This document shows positions 65-7,581 of a stretch of DNA of 7,581 nucleotides, one piece after another. The stretch lies in IMG/VR virus record IMGVR_UViG_2541047885_000010; one strand, 5' to 3'. Numbering within the stretch: the stretch's first letter is position 1; each line of letters begins with the position of its first letter. The translations under genes were made by a program, and so were the position numbers. The DNA comes from a virus (taxonomy: Duplodnaviria; Heunggongvirae; Uroviricota; Caudoviricetes). Under the pieces are notes generated by a model that saw nothing but the letters and a program-made list of their open reading frames with translations, was not told the DNA's origin and did not search any database.

Positions 65-75
65 GTCCATAAGAA

Positions 76-95
76 AGCCCCTCCGGAGAGGGGCT
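76..95 (-). terminator. Possible weak terminator hairpin for the minus-strand cargo transcript
   Basis: agcccctc (76-83) / gaggggct (88-95), 8-bp stem with cgga loop. On the minus strand it is followed by a T-rich but interrupted tract (tttcttat). Confidence 0.3.
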
Positions 96-440
96 GGAGA
101 GTGGCGCTATGTGCCATTGCATGATGCCGGGTGCCTCCCGGTGAGTTCAGCCCGGTGACACTGAACCCGCGTCATTCTCGTTTTGATAATCAGAGATTAT
201 ACCATCACCAGTCGCCCCTCCGCTCAGGGGGATTCACCATGCCGTTCTCTTTTAACAAATTCGCCGCTAACAGGACAACATTCCGCTTTCTGAGTTGTGA
301 GGAATTTAACACTTCACACCTGTGTGCATTTTCTACAGGCTGATCCCAGCACCACAATACATCGCAGGCAACAGAAGCCAAATGCCCCACCACAGAAAAA
401 ACATGCAATTATGATTATTGTTTACTGCAAAGATGTAGAA

Positions 441-1147: not shown

Positions 1148-1224
1148 TGGACCGCCATCGAGGACTCGAACCCCGCGCAGCCAGCTTCGAAGGCTGGCGC
1201 TCTATCCCGATGAGCTAATGGCGG
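1148..1224 (-). tRNA. tRNA-Arg (anticodon UCG)
   Basis: Reverse complement folds as a cloverleaf: acceptor CCGCCAT/ATGGCGG, D-stem GCTC/GAGC, anticodon stem CCAGC/GCTGG with loop CTTCGAA (anticodon TCG), T-stem CGGGG/CCTCG with loop TTCGAGT, then encoded CCA. 77 nt. Confidence 0.8.
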
Positions 1225-1233
1225 TATGTGATA

Positions 1234-1309
1234 TGGTGGCCCTTGCTGGATTTGAACCAGCTACCTGGCGATTATGAGTCGCTCGCTCTCACCACTGAGC
1301 TAAAGGGCC
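1234..1309 (-). tRNA. tRNA-Ile2 type (anticodon CAU, lysidine-type; formally could be tRNA-Met)
   Basis: Reverse complement GGCCCTTTAGCTCAGTGGTGAGAGCGAGCGACTCATAATCGCCAGGTAGCTGGTTCAAATCCAGCAAGGGCCACCA. Anticodon loop CTCATAA, T-loop TTCAAAT, encoded CCA, 76 nt. Closely resembles E. coli ileX/ileY and the ileZ of Stx phages as I recall them. Confidence 0.85.
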
Positions 1310-1349: not shown

Positions 1350-1688
1350 TCATCCGTTCTGACTGACTAAATCCTGAACTTCCCGAACCGTCTGCTCAAA
1401 ACGTTCAGTCTCCAGCTCAACGCCTGTAGCACGACGGCCCAGTGCCAGTGCAGCTTTAACTGTTGAACCTGACCCCATAAAAAAATCTGCAACCAGGTCA
1501 CCCGGACGACTGCTTGCGCTGATTATCTGCTGCAGCATTTCTGCCGGTTTTTCGCACGGATGTTTCCCGGGATAGAACTGCACCGGTTTATGCGTCCAGA
1601 CATCGGTATACGGCACCTGCGCCGTCACGCCAAAATACCGCCGCAGTCGGCATTCACAACCACCAGCGCATTTAACGTTCAGGCACAA
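1350..1688 (-). pseudogene. 5'-truncated remnant of a beta-class N4/N6 DNA methyltransferase (C-terminal SAM-binding part only)
   Basis: The ORF has no ATG (the ORF track starts it at a TTG). It contains ...HPCEKPAEMLQQIISASSRPGDLVADFFMGSGSTVKAALALGRRATGVELE..., which is the (Q/E)KP plus FxGSGST SAM-binding motif block of PF01555-type methylases. The DPPY catalytic region expected N-terminal to it is absent, and the upstream sequence is an AT-rich porin promoter region. Confidence 0.6.
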
Positions 1689-1712: not shown

Positions 1713-2138
1713 AAGCTGTGTGACGAAGTAACCACTCTTAACAGCATAACCAATTTTTTACGTACGTAAACTACTAAATGATATTTGTGAGAATGCCACC
1801 GAGTGTTCAAAACACCACCACAAATGCATAAGAAAACTTCAACAAATAACCAGTTAATAATTTCCGATGTTATTTTTAGTTTGTTTAAATTAAGCTAAAG
1901 AATTATAGAGCACTTATAAATAAGTGCCATTAATATAAATTAGCTAATAGATTTATTTTTGTTCAGACAAGAGCCATGAATAGGATTAGATAGAAAAGGT
2001 TCCGATAAAAATAGAGATCTACTTCACAAATTAAATGAGAAACTAAAACTTACATCTTGAAATAATCACATTGATTAGATGAATATTTATCGCGCAGTGA
2101 CATCATTTTTTAATAATAGTTCAAAAAAAGGGCGTACA

Positions 2139-3221
2139 ATGAAAAAATTAACAGTGGCAATTTCTGCTGTAGCTGCATCAGTACTGATGGCGATGTCTGC
2201 TCAGGCAGCTGAAATTTATAATAAAGACAGTAACAAGCTGGATCTATACGGGAAAGTTAATGCCAAGCACTACTTCTCCTCTAATGATGCAGATGATGGT
2301 GATACTACTTATGCTCGTCTTGGCTTCAAAGGTGAAACCCAAATCAACGATCAACTGACTGGTTTCGGTCAGTGGGAATATGACTTCAAAGGCAACCGTG
2401 CTGAATCTCAAGGTTCTTCCAAAGACAAAACCCGTCTTGCATTTGCAGGCCTGAAATTTGGTGATTACGGCTCAATCGATTACGGTCGTAACTACGGTGT
2501 AGCATACGACATCGGTGCGTGGACTGACGTTCTGCCAGAATTCGGTGGTGATACCTGGACCCAGACAGATGTGTTCATGACTGGCCGCACTACTGGTGTT
2601 GCAACTTATCGTAACAACGACTTCTTTGGTCTGGTCGATGGCCTGAACTTTGCTGCTCAGTATCAGGGTAAAAATGACCGCACTGACGTAACTGAAGCCA
2701 ATGGTGATGGTTTCGGTTTCTCCACTACTTATGAGTATGAAGGATTCGGCGTGGGTGCAACCTATGCTAAATCAGATCGCACTGACGGTCAGGTCGCCTA
2801 TGGTAAGAGCAAATTCAATGCCTCCGGCAAAAATGCGGAAGTATGGGCTGCAGGCCTGAAATATGATGCGAACAATATCTATCTGGCTACCACATATTCT
2901 GAAACTCAGAATATGACCGTTTTTGGTAATAACCATATTGCAAACAAAGCACAAAACTTTGAAGCAGTAGCACAATATCAGTTTGACTTCGGTCTGCGCC
3001 CATCTGTTGCTTACCTTCAGTCAAAAGGTAAAGACCTTGGTGTTCATGGTGACCGAGACTTAGTCAAGTATGTCGATGTCGGTGCTACTTACTACTTTAA
3101 TAAAAACATGTCCACTTTTGTTGATTACAAAATCAACTTAATTGACGATAGTAAGTTTACCAAAACAGCTGGTATTGATACCGACGACATCGTCGCTGTA
3201 GGTCTGGTTTATCAGTTCTAA
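2139..3221 (+). CDS. nmpC: Outer-membrane general porin of the OmpC/OmpF family, NmpC / phage PA-2 Lc type (prophage cargo gene)
   Basis: ATG at 2139 preceded by aaggg. Signal peptide [23 protein letters not shown] then [17 protein letters not shown]..., [18 protein letters not shown], and C-terminal ...VAVGLVYQF with terminal Phe. Opposite orientation to Q, as for nmpC relative to quuD in DLP12. The ORF-track start at 2079 adds 20 non-signal residues and is unlikely. Confidence 0.92.
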
Positions 3222-3272: not shown

Positions 3273-3359
3273 AAGTGGAGCCCTCAAGCCACTTCCTTTA
3301 GAAGCACTACCTTGCTTCTTACTATATAAACCTTCTGTTATATATTACCCTTTATTTTG

Positions 3360-3383
3360 GGGGCGTTTCCACGCCCCATTTTT
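3360..3383 (+). terminator. Rho-independent terminator on the plus strand, probably for the porin transcript
   Basis: ggggcg (3360-3365) / cgcccc (3372-3377), loop tttcca, followed by a + ttttt (3379-3383). Confidence 0.5.
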
Positions 3384-3409
3384 AATAACTTTTAGTAAAC
3401 AATTGCATA

Positions 3410-3793
3410 TCAATTAGAATTATTAGCAACGATATCCATATCTAACCGGATATCTAATGCCATTAACATCCCTTCAATTATGCCCTCAGCCTTCTGTAAC
3501 CTTTTCCCGATATAACCATCCGAGCAGCAATGCTTACTTGCCAGTGACATGAATGTCATACCACATACATAATAATCTACTAATAAATCGTGTAAATCGC
3601 TGTTGTTCTTTTTCAGACGGGCCATGCACCCGCAAATGATCATCGCGTCATCGTCACAACATTGCGGGCGAGATTTTACTTTTGAAGGAATTAATCCCTT
3701 AAAACCGGCAGCAATGGACGACCAGGTCACATCCTCATGATTATTTGCCGCCCATGCCCCCCAGCGTTCAAGAACCATCTGAATATCACGCAT
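3410..3793 (-). CDS. Late-gene antiterminator Q, phage 82 / QuuD type
   Basis: 127 aa from the ATG at 3793, with GGAG 7 nt upstream. Begins [26 protein letters not shown]... and has Cys-rich motifs (PQCCDD, CGC, HCC). Matches my recollection of the DLP12 QuuD family. The ORF-track start at 3808 is a TTG and less likely. Confidence 0.85.
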
Positions 3794-3810
3794 CAACTTT
3801 CTCCACAAAA

Positions 3811-4806
3811 TCAGGACAGCACACCAATCGCCAGTGCGCGATCGATAAAACGAAATATCAGCTCCAGTTGGGAACCATACTTCTCTTCAAATGCCACGGT
3901 ATCCACATGCAGTTCGTCATGGTGTTTTCTGCACAAAGGCAACACAAAGAGATCATGCGCTTTTGTCCCCATACCACCCTGGCCGTGACCAATCAGATGA
4001 TGCGGATCATCAGCTGGCTTTCCACAACATGCACACGGCTGCGTCTTAACCCAGCGAGTGTACTTTTCATTAACCCAGCGACGACGTTTGGGGCGTAACA
4101 TAAAAGACTCCGGCGACTCCGGATCCACTTTCAGCGCCAGCACCTTTTTCGCTTTATCCCGGATAATACTGGTGGCAGTAACCGAAGGTACAAGGTCACT
4201 CTCCCGGGTGACAGACGGCAAAACAGGCTTCGGTAATCTCAGGGCCTTACGGGCTGCACTTTCCGGCAAGGCATCCGCCAGGTCATTACGAACCAGCCAC
4301 CAGCACAGTTCCGGCATTGTCACAACGTGACTGTCATCAAAACCGAGATCCCGACGCACGACAGACAACACCCAGCGGGCACAGTTATCCGTTGCCATTG
4401 ATTCCAGCCGTTCCGTGAACTGGTCACGCAGCTGGTTATCACAGTGCCAGCACAGACGGATTGCGCCCGGAGCGTGCCGCATTGTGGTCATGTTCTCGCT
4501 GTGCCAGTCGGAATGAGGCCACTGACAGCCCTTTTCACGAAGTAACCAGCTTTCAAGACATTCCACGCCACCAGCACGACGGATCACTGCCTCATTGCGG
4601 AACACGGCCCGAACGGCAGGATCATCCGCCAGCGGTTGTGATGCCGCCGGAACGGCACCACTGGCGAAAGATGAATAACGTTCCGGCTCAGGCTCCAGCA
4701 GGACACGCCCCTGCATAAACAGGGGCATCAGCTCTGAACCGGGCCTGAACAATACGATCCCCATACGCGGGGCAATTTCAGGGGTCAGTAGTGCTCTCAC
4801 GGTCAC
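3811..4806 (-). CDS. DUF968 (YdfU-like) nin-region protein with a C-terminal HNH-type nuclease / zinc-finger motif
   Basis: 331-aa ORF with GTG start at 4806 (alternative GTG at 4800 with GAGGTG upstream). C-terminus carries [43 protein letters not shown], i.e. CxCC...D-x-HH...LC..HH..H. Stop at 3811 lies 4 nt before the Q ribosome-binding site. Confidence 0.7.
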
Positions 4807-4807
4807 C

Positions 4808-5623
4808 TCAATGAACGGTATCGAGCAGCTTTAACAGCTCAGGGAATCGGGATTCGAAGAAATGCGGCTGCGTCTCGCGCGGATTTGCAGGACTGGTGAT
4901 GTTCTTGCCGAACATGCAGCCTTTCGCTGTCAGCGACCAGAATTTTTTGATGTTGTTAATCGCGGTACGGCTGTATCGTTCGCGTTGTTCAACGATCCCC
5001 AGCTTCGCCATCTGGTGATATGCCTGATTAGCCGTCAGGCGGATACCATACTGCTTCAGCAGTGCACTCAGCGACAGCGTAGGGCGGCTTGAACCATCTG
5101 GCGCATCAGCAGGTGCATCAATGGCATAGATCGGCATAAGTTCAGGAAGACCAGCTACCTTTGATAATTTCTGGTATGCACCAAGTTTCGAGGAGTTTGA
5201 CAGATTTAGAGTCTTTGCTGCTGATTCAAGCAGAATGACCCCGGATTTAATTTTGTCGGATGTGGTTTCTTCTGGTGATGAATTATGAAGCGCATCAAAA
5301 GTACGTATCACTTTTAAGCTGAATGCCGGGCTGATCCACATTGCATATGCATAGACCAGCTCTTTACAGACATACGTCCCACCATTGCGCCCCTGAATGG
5401 TGATGACAGGAATACTACGGGAATCTCCCGTAGTTTCTTCTTCCAATAATTCCACAAGAGCCTTCGTTTCAGGACGACGCATAAACTCGTGAACTTCCAG
5501 CGAACGGGAGGAGCGATTCTCACCAGCGGCAAGAAGAGCAGCTTTCTGAAGGTCGTTAAGACAGTAGTTAGATTCGAAGTACTGGCGCACAGAAACGCCA
5601 TCAATTACAAGCAACTGATTCAT
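4808..5623 (-). CDS. KilA-N domain protein (antirepressor-like / Roi-like DNA-binding protein)
   Basis: ATG at 5623 with GGAG 8 nt upstream (the ORF-track start at 5635 is a GTG). N-terminal MNQLLVIDGVSVRQ...GGTYVCKELVYAYAMWISPAFSLKVIRTFDAL is KilA-N/APSES-like. Stop TGA is 1 nt from the DUF968 start, suggesting co-translation. Confidence 0.7.
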   Translation of the reverse strand: MNQLLVIDGVSVRQYFESNYCLNDLQKAALLAAGENRSSRSLEVHEFMRRPETKALVELLEEETTGDSRSIPVITIQGRNGGTYVCKELVYAYAMWISPAFSLKVIRTFDALHNSSPEETTSDKIKSGVILLESAAKTLNLSNSSKLGAYQKLSKVAGLPELMPIYAIDAPADAPDGSSRPTLSLSALLKQYGIRLTANQAYHQMAKLGIVEQRERYSRTAINNIKKFWSLTAKGCMFGKNITSPANPRETQPHFFESRFPELLKLLDTVH

Positions 5624-5686
5624 TGGTTTCTCCACAAATTTTTATCCACGAGCGGGACTGCACTCCCTTTTCGTTGATGCAGGATG

Positions 5687-5715
5687 AACTTACTGCGATT
5701 TTTAATAGTTATCAA
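5687..5715 (-). promoter_or_regulatory. Candidate sigma-70 promoter for the kilA-N / DUF968 / Q block
   Basis: On the minus strand: -35 TTGATA (5710-5715), 17-nt spacer, -10 TAAGTT (5687-5692). An alternative upstream pair is -35 TTGAGC (5775-5780) and -10 GTATTA (5753-5758). Sequence-only prediction. Confidence 0.3.
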
Positions 5716-5720
5716 GGATA

Positions 5721-5740
5721 CACTGTTCATAAATACAGTA
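5721..5740. promoter_or_regulatory. SOS box (LexA operator), CTGT-N8-ACAG
   Basis: cactgttcataaatacagta: CTGT at 5723-5726, 8-nt AT-rich spacer, ACAG at 5735-5738. 16 of 20 positions match the E. coli consensus TACTGTATATATATACAGTA, with all invariant positions conserved. Sits in the 161-nt gap between rusA and kilA-N. Confidence 0.6.
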
Positions 5741-5785
5741 TCTTTAACGAGGTAATACCCAAATTTAGGGTGTTGCTCAATTCCG

Positions 5786-6181
5786 TTACCGAGTTGCTAA
5801 TTTGCAACTCGCTTTTTCGTACTTACTGATAGTGATCTCGACCTTCCCTTCCGGGATAACCGGTCCCCACTCCACCAGCATTCTTTTCACCTGGCTGTCG
5901 TCTTCCCACACACCCGCGTGGGTCAGGGCGTCAAACAGCGCCTTGTTATAGTTGTCCAGATCGCGGATCCGGTTATCCGGAGGAAACAACACGATCTCCA
6001 CTGAAGCAGGTGCCGACGTTGGTTTCGGCAGACGACGTAACTGCTCAACTATTGCTGCACACGCCGCGCTCTGGAATTTTCGCCCCGCCGCGCTTATCAG
6101 GCTCTTACCAGCAAACGCCCCTTTGTTGGGGTGTCGCCAGTACGTGTTCACGCTGGGCGGAAAAGGCAGTATTAGCTTCAT
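5786..6181 (-). CDS. rusA: RusA-family Holliday junction resolvase
   Basis: N-terminal ...LPFPPSVNTYWRH... and DNRIRDLDNYNKALFDALTHAGVWEDDSQV match the RusA family (LPWPPSNNRYYRH..., [28 protein letters not shown]). ATG overlaps the upstream stop as ATGA. About 10 aa longer at the C-terminus than E. coli RusA. Confidence 0.85.
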   Translation of the reverse strand: MKLILPFPPSVNTYWRHPNKGAFAGKSLISAAGRKFQSAACAAIVEQLRRLPKPTSAPASVEIVLFPPDNRIRDLDNYNKALFDALTHAGVWEDDSQVKRMLVEWGPVIPEGKVEITISKYEKASCKLATR

Positions 6182-6504
6182 ACTTTCAGGCCCCTCTCAT
6201 GTAACCAGTGGGCTGCACGCAGCCTTGCGTTTTCCTCACCGGCAAGCAGTGAGCGGATAATCCCGACCGCCTCGCTGTCGTCGTCCTTCACCGCGGTATG
6301 AAGAGTGATACCCCGGGCCACGCCACGCTTTATCGTGATGACACCTTTTTTCTCCAGTGCGCGAAGATGCTCCACCGCTGCATTCACCGAACGGTATCCC
6401 AGCATGGTTGCCACCTCCTGATTGGTTGGCGGGAAGCCACGTTCTTTCTGATAAGAAATCAGCATATCCAGCACCTGCTGCTGGCATTGAGTTAATGTCG
6501 TCAT
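6178..6504 (-). CDS. LexA-like winged-helix DNA-binding-domain protein lacking the S24 peptidase domain
   Basis: 108 aa. MTTLTQCQQQVLDMLISYQKERGFPPTNQEVATMLGYRSVNAAVEHLRALEKKGVITIKRGVARGITL aligns with LexA residues 1-70 ([68 protein letters not shown]), including the recognition helix S-x-NAA-x-EHL. The C-terminal ~35 aa are unrelated to the LexA protease domain. ATGA overlaps at both ends. Confidence 0.75.
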   Translation of the reverse strand: MTTLTQCQQQVLDMLISYQKERGFPPTNQEVATMLGYRSVNAAVEHLRALEKKGVITIKRGVARGITLHTAVKDDDSEAVGIIRSLLAGEENARLRAAHWLHERGLKV

Positions 6505-7153
6505 GCCGCCATCTCCCTGACCAGTTTTTCTGCCTGCTGGCGAACCTGCGCCAGAAAGGCCTCACCACATGCCTCAAGTTCATCGCGCCCGATGTAGCTG
6601 ATTGCCGGTCCCTTCCAGGTCTTGTCGAAAACAGCAATAGCACCAGCGAAGAAAGCGCCTGTCGGCACCTGCTTCTCATCCTTCGGGATAAACCAGGCAG
6701 GCAGTTCAAAACCAATACGCCCGCGAATAAAAGCAATATGATCTGCATCTTCCGGCCACCACACTTGCTGGTGGCAGCTTTGATCAGGAAAACATAGCGC
6801 CCGCCTTTATCACGCATGGCACTGGCATGCTTCATGATGTAACGCATGCCGGTGATGTATTGTCCCTCATGCTGACTGGCGCGGCTGTACGGGGGATTAC
6901 CAAAGGCAGCACCTTTAAGCTCCGCAAGACGTTCTGACCAGTCATGTGCCAGCGCGTTGTCTTCCGCCGTGTAATACGCGGCACATTTGGCGTTATCACC
7001 GTCAGTAAACAGATCCAGAACAAACGGGCCAAACAGGGTGTTAATTCCCCAGAAAATGTTGTCCGGCGTGCGCCACTGATCGCCCACTTCCTTCAGTTCA
7101 TGGGCTGGTTTGTTCCGTAGTTCCACCAGCGCCTGGCAATATTTATTACTCAT
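6501..7153 (-). pseudogene. Phage Dam-family DNA N6-adenine methyltransferase, interrupted by a frameshift at about 6760-6763
   Basis: N-terminal frame from ATG 7153 gives MSNKYCQALVELRNKPAHELKEVGDQWRTPDNIFWGINTLFGPFVLDLFTDGDNAKCAAYYTAEDNALAHDWSERLAELKGAAFGNPPYS...GGRYVFLIKAATSK (NPPY catalytic motif), then becomes low-complexity nonsense. A second frame resumes with WWPEDADHIAFIRGRIGFELPAWFIP... and ends at 6501 in an ATGA overlap with the next gene. Joining the two frames at K|WW reproduces the family motif as I recall it (...ARTDTRWWHD...RFIRGRLKF). Confidence 0.75.
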
Positions 7154-7503
7154 TAAGCCCCCACGTAATTCCCTGAGAGGTACCACTCTTCACCTGATGC
7201 AGCCCGCTTACTGCTTTTCCGTAAACACCGTTCACGACGCGCCAGAAAATTGTTTCGTTCTGGCTGGGAGTGGCTTTCACGGAATGCCGCCATCCACACC
7301 GTTGCAGCACGACGGTATAAGCCCCTGGACTCCAGTTCTTCCGCCTGGCGGGTCAGGCACAAAATCACCCGGGGATCGTTAGTGCCGACATAGAAATTGC
7401 GCACAGGTATGGTTTCAAGAACAGGTTGCAGTTTCTCCTCCTGCGATATCTCAGCCTGGTGTGGGAAATGTCTGCGTGTTTTCCCTTCACAACAGTGAGC
7501 CAC
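7153..7503 (-). CDS. PerC-family (Pch-like) transcriptional regulator, 5' end uncertain
   Basis: Contains ...LTRQAEELESRGLYRRAATVWMAAFRESHSQPERNNFLARRERCL..., resembling the PerC/Pch signature (LE-x-GLWRRAA-x-W ... RR-x-CL). Stop TAA overlaps the Dam ATG as TAATG. The only in-window start is a GTG at 7503 with no clear ribosome-binding site, and the frame stays open to position 7581. Confidence 0.45.
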   Translation of the reverse strand: MAHCCEGKTRRHFPHQAEISQEEKLQPVLETIPVRNFYVGTNDPRVILCLTRQAEELESRGLYRRAATVWMAAFRESHSQPERNNFLARRERCLRKSSKRAASGEEWYLSGNYVGA

Positions 7504-7581
7504 ACGGCCACTCTGACGTAACTTGCTTGCTGACTGCAGAACGCGCTGCCGTGAGTAACCTGCAAAAGCATCCGCAATGTC

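What the first reader, a model, noticed from the sequence alone, without database searches (positions are those of the whole stretch)
6178..7155. Translationally coupled chain PerC-like, Dam, LexA-domain protein, RusA
Successive genes overlap by TAATG (7151-7155), ATGA (6501-6504) and ATGA (6178-6181), indicating a tightly co-expressed unit that combines a virulence-type regulator family, a DNA methyltransferase, an SOS-type DNA-binding domain and a junction resolvase. The combination is unusual compared with the classical lambda nin region (ninB-ninI) and may be a functional module rather than a chance neighbourhood.
Basis: seen in the sequence. Interest (0 to 1): 0.45.

Follow-up and report, generated by a model that had tools for sequence, protein, structure and literature searches.

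The report
Common SfV-type prophage early-operon genes
This is the ordinary, already annotated tail end of the early operon of an SfV-like lambdoid prophage of E. coli, present in roughly 30-40% of complete E. coli genomes. Its PerC-like, Dam and LexA-domain genes are interchangeable cassettes in front of rusA, not a dedicated four-gene machine.

Summary
The three overlaps (TAATG 7151-7155, ATGA 6501-6504, ATGA 6178-6181) are real, on the minus strand. Two caveats apply. The PerC-family gene runs off the window. The Dam gene carries a 1-nt deletion near 6766-6777, so it is a frameshifted pseudogene and its link to the LexA-like gene is broken here.

The order PerC-Dam-LexA-domain-RusA is the known orf40-dam-orf42-orf43 block of phage SfV. 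At least 80% of it is present in 1608 of 5426 complete E. coli genomes. In the nearest relative, 1-4-nt overlaps continue through four further upstream genes, so tight packing belongs to the whole operon.

The genes assort independently. Found here: PerC-LexA-RusA, PerC-Dam-RusA, replication gene-LexA-RusA, and four different methyltransferase families in the Dam slot.

Only LexA-like followed directly by rusA is near-constant, and the two co-diverge (r = 0.92). But about 76% of sampled unique rusA loci lack the LexA-like gene, and it is precisely absent in near-identical backbones.

The 108-aa protein is a LexA DNA-binding domain without a cleavage domain. Its function is untested. Its closest studied analogue is GIL01 gp6.

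A good LexA box lies upstream of the neighbouring KilA-N gene and travels with that gene's allele.

Verdict: already known, low interest.

The parts
7153..7581 (-). 3' 143 codons of a PerC-family (YfdN-like) gene. The start lies outside the window.
   Evidence: Pfam PF06069, 36.6 bits. PHROG 1324. Translation has no in-frame stop up to the window end. Homologue in L001 is 164 aa.
7151..7155 (-). TAATG junction: PerC stop and Dam start share one base.
   Evidence: Sequence. The same TAATG joins PerC directly to the LexA-like gene in Dam-less phages SfIV and 2H10.
6501..7153 (-). Phage Dam (N6-adenine methyltransferase) gene, frameshifted here. The N-terminal part is in frame from 7153 to about 6777. 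The C-terminal 87 codons are in the frame of ORF 6501-6764.
   Evidence: Intact homologue: PF05869 153 bits, TIGR01712 254 bits. 1-nt deletion relative to L001. Same allele annotated 'frameshifted' in strains YJ6 and ETEC6.
6766..6777 (-). Site of the 1-nt deletion, with one adjacent substitution, that breaks the Dam frame.
   Evidence: Alignment window vs L001. The window reads AGCAAGTGTGGTGG where relatives encode S-E-V-W-W.
6178..6504 (-). 108-aa protein with a LexA DNA-binding domain only: winged helix-turn-helix at residues 1-68, a linker, then two short helices. No cleavage site and no S24 peptidase domain.
   Evidence: PF01726 69 bits over 1-65. TIGR00498 scores 70.8, below its 110.95 cut-off. 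PHROG 362 matches full length. About 50% identical to E. coli LexA residues 2-69, gap-free. AF2 pLDDT 78; Foldseek 3JSO rmsd 1.4 A over 68 residues.
6501..6504 (-). ATGA junction: Dam C-terminal frame stop and LexA-like start.
   Evidence: Sequence.
6178..6181 (-). ATGA junction: LexA-like stop and rusA start.
   Evidence: Sequence. The same 4-nt overlap occurs in mEp390 and Kp4866-6.
5786..6181 (-). RusA-family Holliday-junction resolvase, 131 aa.
   Evidence: PF05866 56 bits. Aligns to E. coli RusA 1Q8R with the RDLDN...DD acidic motif conserved.
5636..5785 (-). Intergenic gap that ends the overlap chain. It contains a LexA (SOS) box, TACTGTATTTATGAACAGTG on the minus strand at 5721-5740 (core 5723-5738). 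A weak TTGAGC-17-TATTAC promoter-like pair lies just upstream of the box.
   Evidence: Pattern search: 1 hit against 0.16 expected. Sequence. The promoter scan did not reach its threshold.
4808..5635 (-). KilA-N domain gene, next gene downstream. The probable start is the ATG at 5623.
   Evidence: PF04383. Annotation in L001.
3811..4806 (-). DUF968/HNH-like gene.
   Evidence: PF06147 269 bits.
3410..3808 (-). Q-type antiterminator (quuD-like), the end of the early-right operon.
   Evidence: PF06530 181 bits. Annotation in L001.

Best explanation
The finding is the distal part of the early-right operon of an SfV-like lambdoid prophage of E. coli. It sits between the replication genes and Q, which is the position of lambda's nin region.

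Inferred: the genes are transcribed together after induction and are translated with stop/start overlaps, like the rest of the operon.

Shown: the backbone order is replication gene - [PerC/YfdN-like] - [DNA methyltransferase] - [LexA-domain protein] - rusA - [KilA-N] - DUF968/HNH - Q. The bracketed positions are optional slots that are filled or emptied independently, with exchange points exactly at the ATGA/TAATG gene boundaries.

Inferred roles:
- Dam is an orphan GATC-type methylase. It is inactivated here by a frameshift.
- RusA resolves recombination junctions, as lambda Rap does.
- The PerC-like protein is a small regulator of unknown target.
- The 108-aa LexA-domain protein most probably binds LexA-box-like DNA but cannot be inactivated by RecA-stimulated self-cleavage, because it lacks that domain.

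The four genes are neighbours by operon architecture and descent, not a dedicated functional module.
For: - Identity with known phages and prophages and their annotation.
- In L001, 1-4-nt overlaps run over seven consecutive junctions, beyond the four genes.
- No promoter-like site inside 5400-7581 on either strand.
- Among 89 loci with a near-identical LexA-like gene, 40 were PerC-Dam-LexA-RusA and 31 were PerC-LexA-RusA, plus truncated variants.
- Dam-less junctions keep the same TAATG.
- PerC-Dam-RusA without LexA-like occurs in ST64B and in L341, where Dam is 98.6% and RusA 97.6% identical to the reference.
- RusA proteins 98-100% identical occur with and without LexA-like.
- mEp390 has replication gene-LexA-RusA without PerC or Dam.
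- D12-class, C5 and MT-A70-like methylases occupy the Dam position.
- In 343 unique rusA loci: LexA+MTase+ 179, LexA+MTase- 66, LexA-MTase+ 97, neither 1.
- In the phage collection, Dam relatives occur in 589 records, RusA in 409, the LexA-like gene in 61 and this PerC type in 56.
- No defence-system partner was found.
Against: - LexA-like directly followed by rusA is far more constant than the other junctions. About 245 of 250 loci show it across two subfamilies only 45% identical. The two proteins co-diverge with r = 0.92. This could reflect a functional tie that a pure cassette picture does not predict.
- Nearly every rusA locus of this clade has a methylase or a LexA-like gene upstream, so the slot is not filled at random.
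- The samples are anchored on the query genes and on the best 80 hits per scan. The frequencies are therefore not population estimates.
- No expression data were examined.
Confidence: 0.85

Rival explanations
1. One reading: PerC-like, Dam, LexA-domain protein and RusA form one four-gene functional module selected as a unit.
For: All four are joined by 1-4-nt overlaps. The full set is the commonest arrangement in E. coli, with at least 80% of the block in 1608 genomes.
Against: - Every subset with rusA except PerC-RusA alone was found, often in near-identical backbones.
- The Dam slot holds four different methylase families.
- The overlaps extend to unrelated upstream genes.
- Dam is a pseudogene in this window and in two other genomes, so the set is not maintained here.
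Confidence: 0.04
2. Narrower module: the LexA-domain protein and RusA form a two-gene unit. The LexA-domain protein would act as an uncleavable LexA mimic, re-repressing SOS-box promoters after host LexA is cleaved. Alternatively it would activate a promoter, as GIL01 gp6 does. It is made in fixed proportion with the phage resolvase by translational coupling.
For: - Adjacency with a 4-nt overlap in about 98% of loci across subfamilies 45% identical.
- Co-divergence r = 0.92, while the upstream neighbour varies among at least six gene types.
- The domain is about 50% identical to the E. coli LexA N-terminal domain and superposes at 1.4 A.
- 4 of the 5 reported DNA-contact residues are kept: S39, N41, A42 and E45, with E44 replaced by V (PMC13416735).
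- A truncated phage LexA homologue with a proven regulatory role exists (PMC6182141).
Against: - In a rusA-anchored sample about 76% of unique loci lack LexA-like.
- LexA-like is precisely missing next to 98-100% identical RusA.
- In Kp4865-4, ST846-OXA48phi9.1, EPP-1 and L394 the LexA-like gene is not next to rusA.
- Co-divergence is equally what simple linkage predicts.
- LexA boxes are no more frequent in LexA-like-positive loci than in LexA-like-negative loci: 2.6 versus 2.8 times expectation.
- No binding or dimerisation data exist, and LexA's own dimer interface lies in the domain this protein lacks (established knowledge).
Confidence: 0.2
3. The LexA-domain protein is the dedicated regulator of the neighbouring KilA-N gene, acting through the LexA box at 5723-5738.
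For: A 16/20 match to the SOS-box consensus lies in the rusA-KilA-N gap, two genes downstream of the LexA-like gene.
Against: The box occurs in only 3 of about 93 LexA-like-positive loci. It travels with the window-type KilA-N allele and its 154-nt upstream gap. The other 84 loci with a different KilA-N allele have no box there, and the examples inspected have a gap of about 20 nt.
Confidence: 0.07
4. The methylase is part of a restriction-modification or other anti-phage defence system with its neighbours.
For: Dam matches PADLOC 'MTase_II' models.
Against: No nuclease or defence partner was found among the neighbours. The gene sits in a phage early operon. It also matches orphan-methylase models and is a pseudogene here.
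Confidence: 0.02

Closest known systems
Phage SfV orf40-dam-orf42-orf43 (also SfII, cdtI, mEp460, Stx2a/Stx2c-converting phages)
   Same: Same genes in the same order with the same overlaps. Dam, the LexA-like protein and RusA are 97-99% identical at protein level and the PerC-like protein 87%.
   Different: The window's Dam is frameshifted. Its KilA-N allele with the LexA box is the SfIV/GmF052 type, not the SfV type.
Lambda nin region (ren to ninI, upstream of Q)
   Same: Same position between the replication genes and Q. Small, tightly packed accessory genes with ATGA-type overlaps, including a junction resolvase (Rap/NinG in lambda, RusA in phage 82 and DLP12). This comparison rests on established knowledge.
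   Different: The gene content is largely non-homologous: PerC-like, Dam, LexA-domain, KilA-N and DUF968 instead of ninA-ninI.
E. coli K-12 cryptic prophage CPS-53: yfdO-yfdN-yfdM
   Same: A replication-gene remnant, then PerC-family YfdN, then a methyltransferase fragment YfdM, with 4-nt and 1-nt overlaps.
   Different: The block is truncated after yfdM, so no LexA-like gene or rusA remains.
GIL01 gp6, a truncated LexA homologue of a Bacillus thuringiensis tectivirus (PMC6182141)
   Same: A phage-encoded protein made essentially of the LexA winged-helix DNA-binding domain, without the cleavage domain.
   Different: - Different phage type and host, and no close sequence relationship was tested.
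- gp6 activates the late promoter P3, whereas late genes here are expected to depend on Q.
- The E. coli protein has an extra C-terminal pair of helices spanning residues 75-102.
- The function of the E. coli family is untested.
E. coli LexA (PDB 1LEA, 3JSO)
   Same: Residues 2-69 align without gaps at about 50% identity. The fold superposes at 1.4 A. S39, N41, A42 and E45 are kept.
   Different: No Ala84-Gly85 cleavage site and no Ser119/Lys156 peptidase and dimerisation domain. E44 is replaced by V. The score is below the NCBIfam LexA cut-off.

Membership tests
LexA repressor (TIGR00498 equivalog) | N-terminal winged helix-turn-helix DNA-binding domain | tested here: met
   PF01726 69 bits over residues 1-65. 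Foldseek 3JSO rmsd 1.4 A.
LexA repressor (TIGR00498 equivalog) | C-terminal S24 peptidase and dimerisation domain with the Ala-Gly cleavage site and Ser/Lys dyad | tested here: not met
   The protein ends at residue 108. No S24 Pfam hit. It matches only model positions 1-91 of 203 and scores 70.8 against a cut-off of 110.95.
LexA repressor (TIGR00498 equivalog) | Binding to CTGT-N8-ACAG SOS boxes | not testable with these tools
   4 of the 5 reported contact residues are conserved. There are no binding data.
Phage N6-adenine methyltransferase (PF05869 / TIGR01712) | Full-length match to the family model | tested here: not met
   The intact homologue scores 254 bits. The window copy is split by a 1-nt deletion into a roughly 126-codon N-terminal part and an 87-codon C-terminal part. 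It is a pseudogene of the family.
Phage N6-adenine methyltransferase (PF05869 / TIGR01712) | Catalytic (D/N)PPY motif | tested here: met
   The sequence FGNPPYS is present in the N-terminal in-frame part.
RusA Holliday-junction resolvase (PF05866) | Family model match and conserved catalytic aspartates (D70, D72, D91 in E. coli RusA, from established knowledge) | tested here: met
   56 bits against a cut-off of 22.8. RDLDN and DD align with 1Q8R. The score is below the NCBIfam PRK09786 'exception' cut-off, so it is a family member and not the K-12 orthologue.
PerC / Pch transcriptional activators (PF06069) | Match to the PerC domain | tested here: met
   36.6 bits against a cut-off of 22.6, covering residues 78-129 of the 142 residues visible in the window.
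PerC / Pch transcriptional activators (PF06069) | Activation of ler/LEE virulence genes | not testable with these tools
   Only group 1 Pch proteins (PchA-C) activate ler. PchD and PchE have little effect (PMC5931665, PMC6265319). The window protein is the YfdN type and its target is unknown.
Translationally coupled operon | Stop/start overlap with a ribosome-binding site inside the upstream gene | tested here: met
   All three junctions show it. For Dam to LexA-like, the upstream reading frame no longer reaches the overlap in this window.
Translationally coupled operon | Downstream translation depends on upstream translation | not testable with these tools
   This needs reporter fusions with upstream nonsense mutations.
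Conserved functional gene module | Members co-occur across divergent genomes more than independently | tested here: not met
   Independent presence and absence of Dam, PerC and LexA-like.

The most novel reading that the evidence does not exclude
The 108-aa LexA-domain protein (PHROG 362) is carried by about 41% of complete E. coli genomes and is almost always translationally coupled to rusA. It could be an uncleavable LexA mimic made only after prophage induction. It would rebind SOS boxes once host LexA has been destroyed. That would shut off host SOS functions, including host ruvAB, or LexA-controlled genes of rival prophages, while the phage supplies its own resolvase.
Probability: 0.2. 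Interest if true: 0.55.

Novelty: already known. Interest (0 to 1): 0.2.

Why it matters
As found, it matters little. It is a textbook example of lambdoid mosaicism, with cassette exchange exactly at overlapping stop/start codons, in one of the commonest prophage types of E. coli and Shigella.

Two by-products could be useful.

1. A very widespread phage protein consists of a LexA DNA-binding domain without the cleavage domain and has no assigned function. If it binds SOS boxes it would be a phage tool for manipulating the host DNA-damage response. That bears on Stx-phage induction and on competition between prophages.

2. The position directly upstream of rusA is filled by a DNA methyltransferase from any of four families in about 80% of the sampled loci. 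That makes it a predictable place to look for phage anti-restriction methylases.

Tried and rejected
- **SOS box and the LexA-like gene.** I tested whether the LexA box at 5723-5738 is tied to the LexA-like gene. It is not. It follows the KilA-N allele (3 of about 93 loci).
- **SOS-box enrichment.** LexA-like-carrying phages are not richer in SOS boxes than LexA-like-free relatives: 2.6 versus 2.8 times expectation. A strong box inside the cI-like gene also occurs in LexA-free ST64B.
- **Overlapping gene.** The long open alternative frame across the Dam 3' end and the LexA-like gene is the frame the shifted Dam reads into. It is not open in the mEp390-type subfamily, so it is chance or composition, not an overlapping gene.
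- **Internal dam promoter.** The SfV record annotates -35/-10 signals for dam inside orf40. The consensus scan found no promoter-like site in 5400-7581.
- **Defence-system reading.** Rejected.
- **Non-coding RNA.** Rfam found nothing within the finding.
- **Literature.** Searches for a functional study of SfV orf42 or this LexA-like family found none. The SfV genome paper and the LexA-DNA structure paper are not held.
- **Genome-contig scan.** It returned only 4 loci because the back-translated patterns were too specific.
- **SfIV annotation.** SfIV at first seemed to lack rusA, but tblastn shows an unannotated 99% identical copy.
Full report
**1. What is in the sequence**

All genes of the finding are on the minus strand. 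Reading in the direction of transcription:

| Coordinates | Feature |
|---|---|
| 7581-7153 | PerC-family gene |
| 7153-6501 | Phage Dam gene |
| 6504-6178 | 108-aa LexA-domain gene |
| 6181-5786 | rusA |
| 5785-5636 | 150-nt gap |
| 5635/5623-4808 | KilA-N gene |
| 4806-3811 | DUF968/HNH gene |
| 3808-3410 | Q antiterminator |

The Pfam assignments are clear: PerC PF06069, Dam PF05869, LexA_DNA_bind PF01726 only, RusA PF05866, KilA-N, DUF968 and Phage_antitermQ.

- TAATG at 7151-7155
- ATGA at 6501-6504
- ATGA at 6178-6181

Each start codon is preceded by a purine-rich stretch inside the upstream gene.

**2. Two corrections to the observation**

First, the PerC-family gene is cut by the window end. 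There is no in-frame stop up to base 7581, and the homologue is 164 aa.

Second, the Dam gene is broken.
- Against the nearest relative, E. coli GmF052 (99.6% identical over the whole window), the window lacks one base at about 6766-6777 and has a substitution beside it.
- Translation from the Dam ATG therefore leaves the Dam frame after about 126 codons. It runs across the LexA-like start codon and stops only at 6236 (the 316-aa ORF).
- The ATGA at 6501-6504 terminates only the orphan C-terminal frame (ORF 6501-6764).
- A 101-nt probe across the site is 100% identical in only 2 of 1726 genomes that carry this Dam segment: strains YJ6 from Myanmar and ETEC6 from Bangladesh. In both, PGAP marks the gene 'frameshifted'.
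- So this is probably a real, rare pseudogene allele. Elongating ribosomes would in fact run over the LexA-like start (inference).

**3. The arrangement is known and very common**

- The 1.9-kb block 5700-7581 matches 2690 of 5426 complete E. coli genomes. In 1608 of them at least 80% is covered, and the four genes are annotated as such.
- The LexA-like gene alone is in 2233 genomes, at 2855 places.
- In the phage collection the same four genes in the same order are orf40-dam-orf42-orf43 of SfV. They also occur in SfII, cdtI, mEp460 and the Stx2a and Stx2c phages.
- E. coli K-12 keeps a remnant in cryptic prophage CPS-53: yfdO-yfdN-yfdM, with 4-nt and 1-nt overlaps.
- The block sits between the replication genes and Q, which is the position of lambda's nin region.

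**4. The overlaps are a property of the whole operon**

In GmF052, seven consecutive junctions overlap by 1-4 nt. They run from the Rha-family gene, through two small hypothetical genes and the replication gene, to PerC, Dam, LexA-like and rusA. The four-gene 'chain' ends where it does only because the window ends. No sigma-70-like promoter was found on either strand in 5400-7581.

**5. Neighbourhood test: do the genes travel together?**

I gathered 416 loci from phage records, E. coli genomes and IMG/VR contigs. They were anchored on the LexA-like protein (two subfamilies) and on RusA.

*Dam is optional.*
- Among 89 loci with a 99-100% identical LexA-like gene, 40 were PerC-Dam-LexA-RusA and 31 were PerC-LexA-RusA, plus truncated forms.
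- Over the larger set the gene directly upstream of LexA-like was Dam in 105 loci and PerC in 54.
- In Dam-less phages (SfIV, 2H10) the PerC stop overlaps the LexA-like ATG in the same TAATG used for Dam. Dam is therefore a cassette bounded by the two ATGA sites.

*LexA-like is optional.*
- ST64B has PerC-Dam-RusA.
- YeP1 has Dam-RusA, and F1055 has PerC, then a D12-class methylase, then RusA.
- IMG/VR locus L341 has PerC-Dam-RusA with the Dam stop abutting the rusA start. Its Dam is 98.6% and its RusA 97.6% identical to the reference proteins.
- Several RusA proteins in LexA-free loci are 98-100% identical to RusA in LexA-positive loci.

*PerC is optional.*
- mEp390-type loci have a replication gene, a 75-aa protein, or an MT-A70-like or C5 methylase upstream of LexA-like.

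*The Dam slot is a methylase slot.*
- In 124 unique rusA-anchored loci the gene directly upstream of rusA was as follows (the five '?' loci carrying a near-identical RusA are counted with LexA-like):

| Gene directly upstream of rusA | Loci |
|---|---|
| D12 methylase | 46 |
| PF05869 Dam | 27 |
| C5 methylase | 19 |
| MT-A70-like methylase | 3 |
| LexA-like gene | about 27 |
| Unclassified | 2 |

- Over 343 unique rusA loci:

| LexA-like | Methylase | Loci |
|---|---|---|
| present | present | 179 |
| present | absent | 66 |
| absent | present | 97 |
| absent | absent | 1 |

- In the phage collection as a whole, Dam relatives occur in 589 records and RusA in 409. The LexA-like gene occurs in only 61 and this PerC type in 56.

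**6. What does hold: LexA-like is nearly always followed directly by rusA**

Evidence for a tie:
- About 245 of 250 loci have the two genes adjacent, usually with the ATGA overlap. This spans two subfamilies that share only about 45% identity.
- Pairwise identities of the two proteins are strongly correlated (r = 0.92). No locus pairs a near-identical RusA with the other LexA-like type.
- The two genes have therefore been inherited as a linked pair while the upstream junction recombined freely.

Limits on that conclusion:
- Linkage is also what simple descent predicts.
- The dependence runs one way only, because most rusA genes of the clade lack LexA-like.
- Exceptions exist. In Kp4865-4 and ST846-OXA48phi9.1 the order is LexA-like, then a 67-aa gene, then DUF968. 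In EPP-1 the LexA-like gene lies downstream of rusA. In L394 another gene is inserted between them.

**7. The LexA-domain protein**

- Residues 2-69 align without gaps to the E. coli LexA N-terminal domain at about 50% identity.
- An AlphaFold model (mean pLDDT 78) gives three helices and a beta-hairpin wing, a disordered linker at 69-75, and two short helices at 75-87 and 93-102.
- Its best structural matches are LexA-DNA complexes, at 1.4 A over 68 residues.
- Of the five residues reported to contact DNA in E. coli LexA (Ser39, Asn41, Ala42, Glu44, Glu45; PMC13416735), four are kept and Glu44 is replaced by Val.
- There is no cleavage site and no peptidase domain, and the protein fails the NCBIfam LexA cut-off.
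- It is therefore not a LexA orthologue. It belongs to PHROG 362, labelled 'transcriptional repressor'.
- The family is narrow: E. coli/Shigella, Citrobacter, Salmonella, Hafnia and Klebsiella.
- I found no functional study of it.
- The closest characterised analogue is GIL01 gp6, a truncated LexA homologue that activates that phage's late promoter (PMC6182141).

My best guess (inference): it binds LexA-box-like sites after induction and cannot be removed by RecA-stimulated cleavage. Whether it represses or activates, and where, is open.

**8. Tests of that idea that came out negative**

- A good SOS box lies in the rusA-KilA-N gap: TACTGTATTTATGAACAGTG, 16/20 to consensus, core at 5723-5738.
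- It is present in only 3 of about 93 LexA-like-positive loci. It travels with the window-type KilA-N allele and its 154-nt leader.
- SOS-box density is the same in LexA-like-positive and LexA-like-negative relatives.
- So comparative data do not link the phage protein to these boxes.
- The box itself suggests that this KilA-N gene is host-LexA controlled, in the manner of SOS-controlled antirepressors. That is an analogy from established knowledge and was not tested here.

**9. Other families**

- RusA keeps the RDLDN...DD acidic motif of E. coli RusA.
- The PerC-like protein is the YfdN type. Published work shows that only group 1 Pch proteins activate ler, whereas PchD and PchE do not (PMC5931665, PMC6265319). 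Calling it a 'virulence-type regulator' therefore over-reads the family name.
- The methylase has no nuclease partner and there is no defence-system signature.
- Rfam finds nothing inside the finding.

**10. Verdict**

The interpretation as an unusual functional module is not supported. The locus is an already annotated, extremely common stretch of an SfV-type prophage early operon. It is built from independently exchangeable cassettes, and one of them, Dam, is dead in this copy.

The only open question of some interest is the function of the LexA-domain protein and its persistent coupling to rusA.

Noticed in passing
window 5721-5740 (core 5723-5738), in the rusA-KilA-N gap 5636-5785: Strong LexA/SOS box, TACTGTATTTATGAACAGTG on the minus strand, just downstream of a weak TTGAGC-17-TATTAC pair and about 100 nt upstream of the KilA-N start. 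It suggests an SOS-controlled, antirepressor-like KilA-N cassette. It is found only with this KilA-N allele (L001, SfIV, L084).
   Followed up: partly
window 6766-6777: A 1-nt deletion makes Dam a pseudogene. The identical allele occurs in E. coli YJ6 and ETEC6, which have a different replication and KilA-N backbone. The window's Dam 3' part (6531-6776) also carries a cluster of differences from its otherwise 99.6% identical relative. Together these suggest a recombinant patch.
   Followed up: partly
window 6236-6750 minus strand, alternative frame: A roughly 170-codon open frame overlaps the Dam 3' end and most of the LexA-like gene out of frame. It is the frame the shifted Dam reads into. 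It is open in window-type loci but holds 4-11 stops in the mEp390-type subfamily, so it is probably not a gene.
   Followed up: yes
related loci, the position directly upstream of rusA (e.g. L090 2620-3489, L097 1034-3004, L122, L128): Four different DNA methyltransferase families (PF05869 Dam, D12-class PF02086, C5 and MT-A70-like) occupy the same slot. 276 of 343 unique rusA loci have one within 2.3 kb upstream.
   Followed up: partly
L011 about 1506, L001 12707-12722, L094 178 (inside the cI-like repressor gene): A near-perfect SOS box, TACTGTTTTTACATACAGTA, lies inside the coding region of the cI-like repressor in many SfV-like prophages, including LexA-like-free ST64B. Another box overlaps the first codons of a 350-aa gene downstream of Q (L017 5455).
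   Followed up: no
L002 (SfIV, NC_022749) 3324-3716: A 99% identical rusA is present but not annotated in the RefSeq record, which leaves a 550-nt 'gap' after gp43.
   Followed up: yes
window 5790-5811: A perfect 8-bp hairpin overlaps the rusA stop region. It is followed by a T-run only on the plus strand, which suggests a terminator for transcription coming from the opposite direction.
   Followed up: no
window 65-271 (-), 1148-1224 (-), 1234-1309 (-), 1350-1688 (-), 2079-3221 (+): Downstream of Q the window holds an STnc100 sRNA match (158 bits), tRNA-Arg(TCG), a CAT-anticodon tRNA (annotated tRNA-Ile in the relative), a truncated DNA methyltransferase gene and an OmpC-like porin on the opposite strand.
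   Followed up: no
proteins P0021, P0092, P0098, P0120: Database proteins that fuse Dam C-terminal and LexA-domain sequence. They are most likely products of frameshifts or miscalled starts at the ATGA junction, not real fusions.
   Followed up: no
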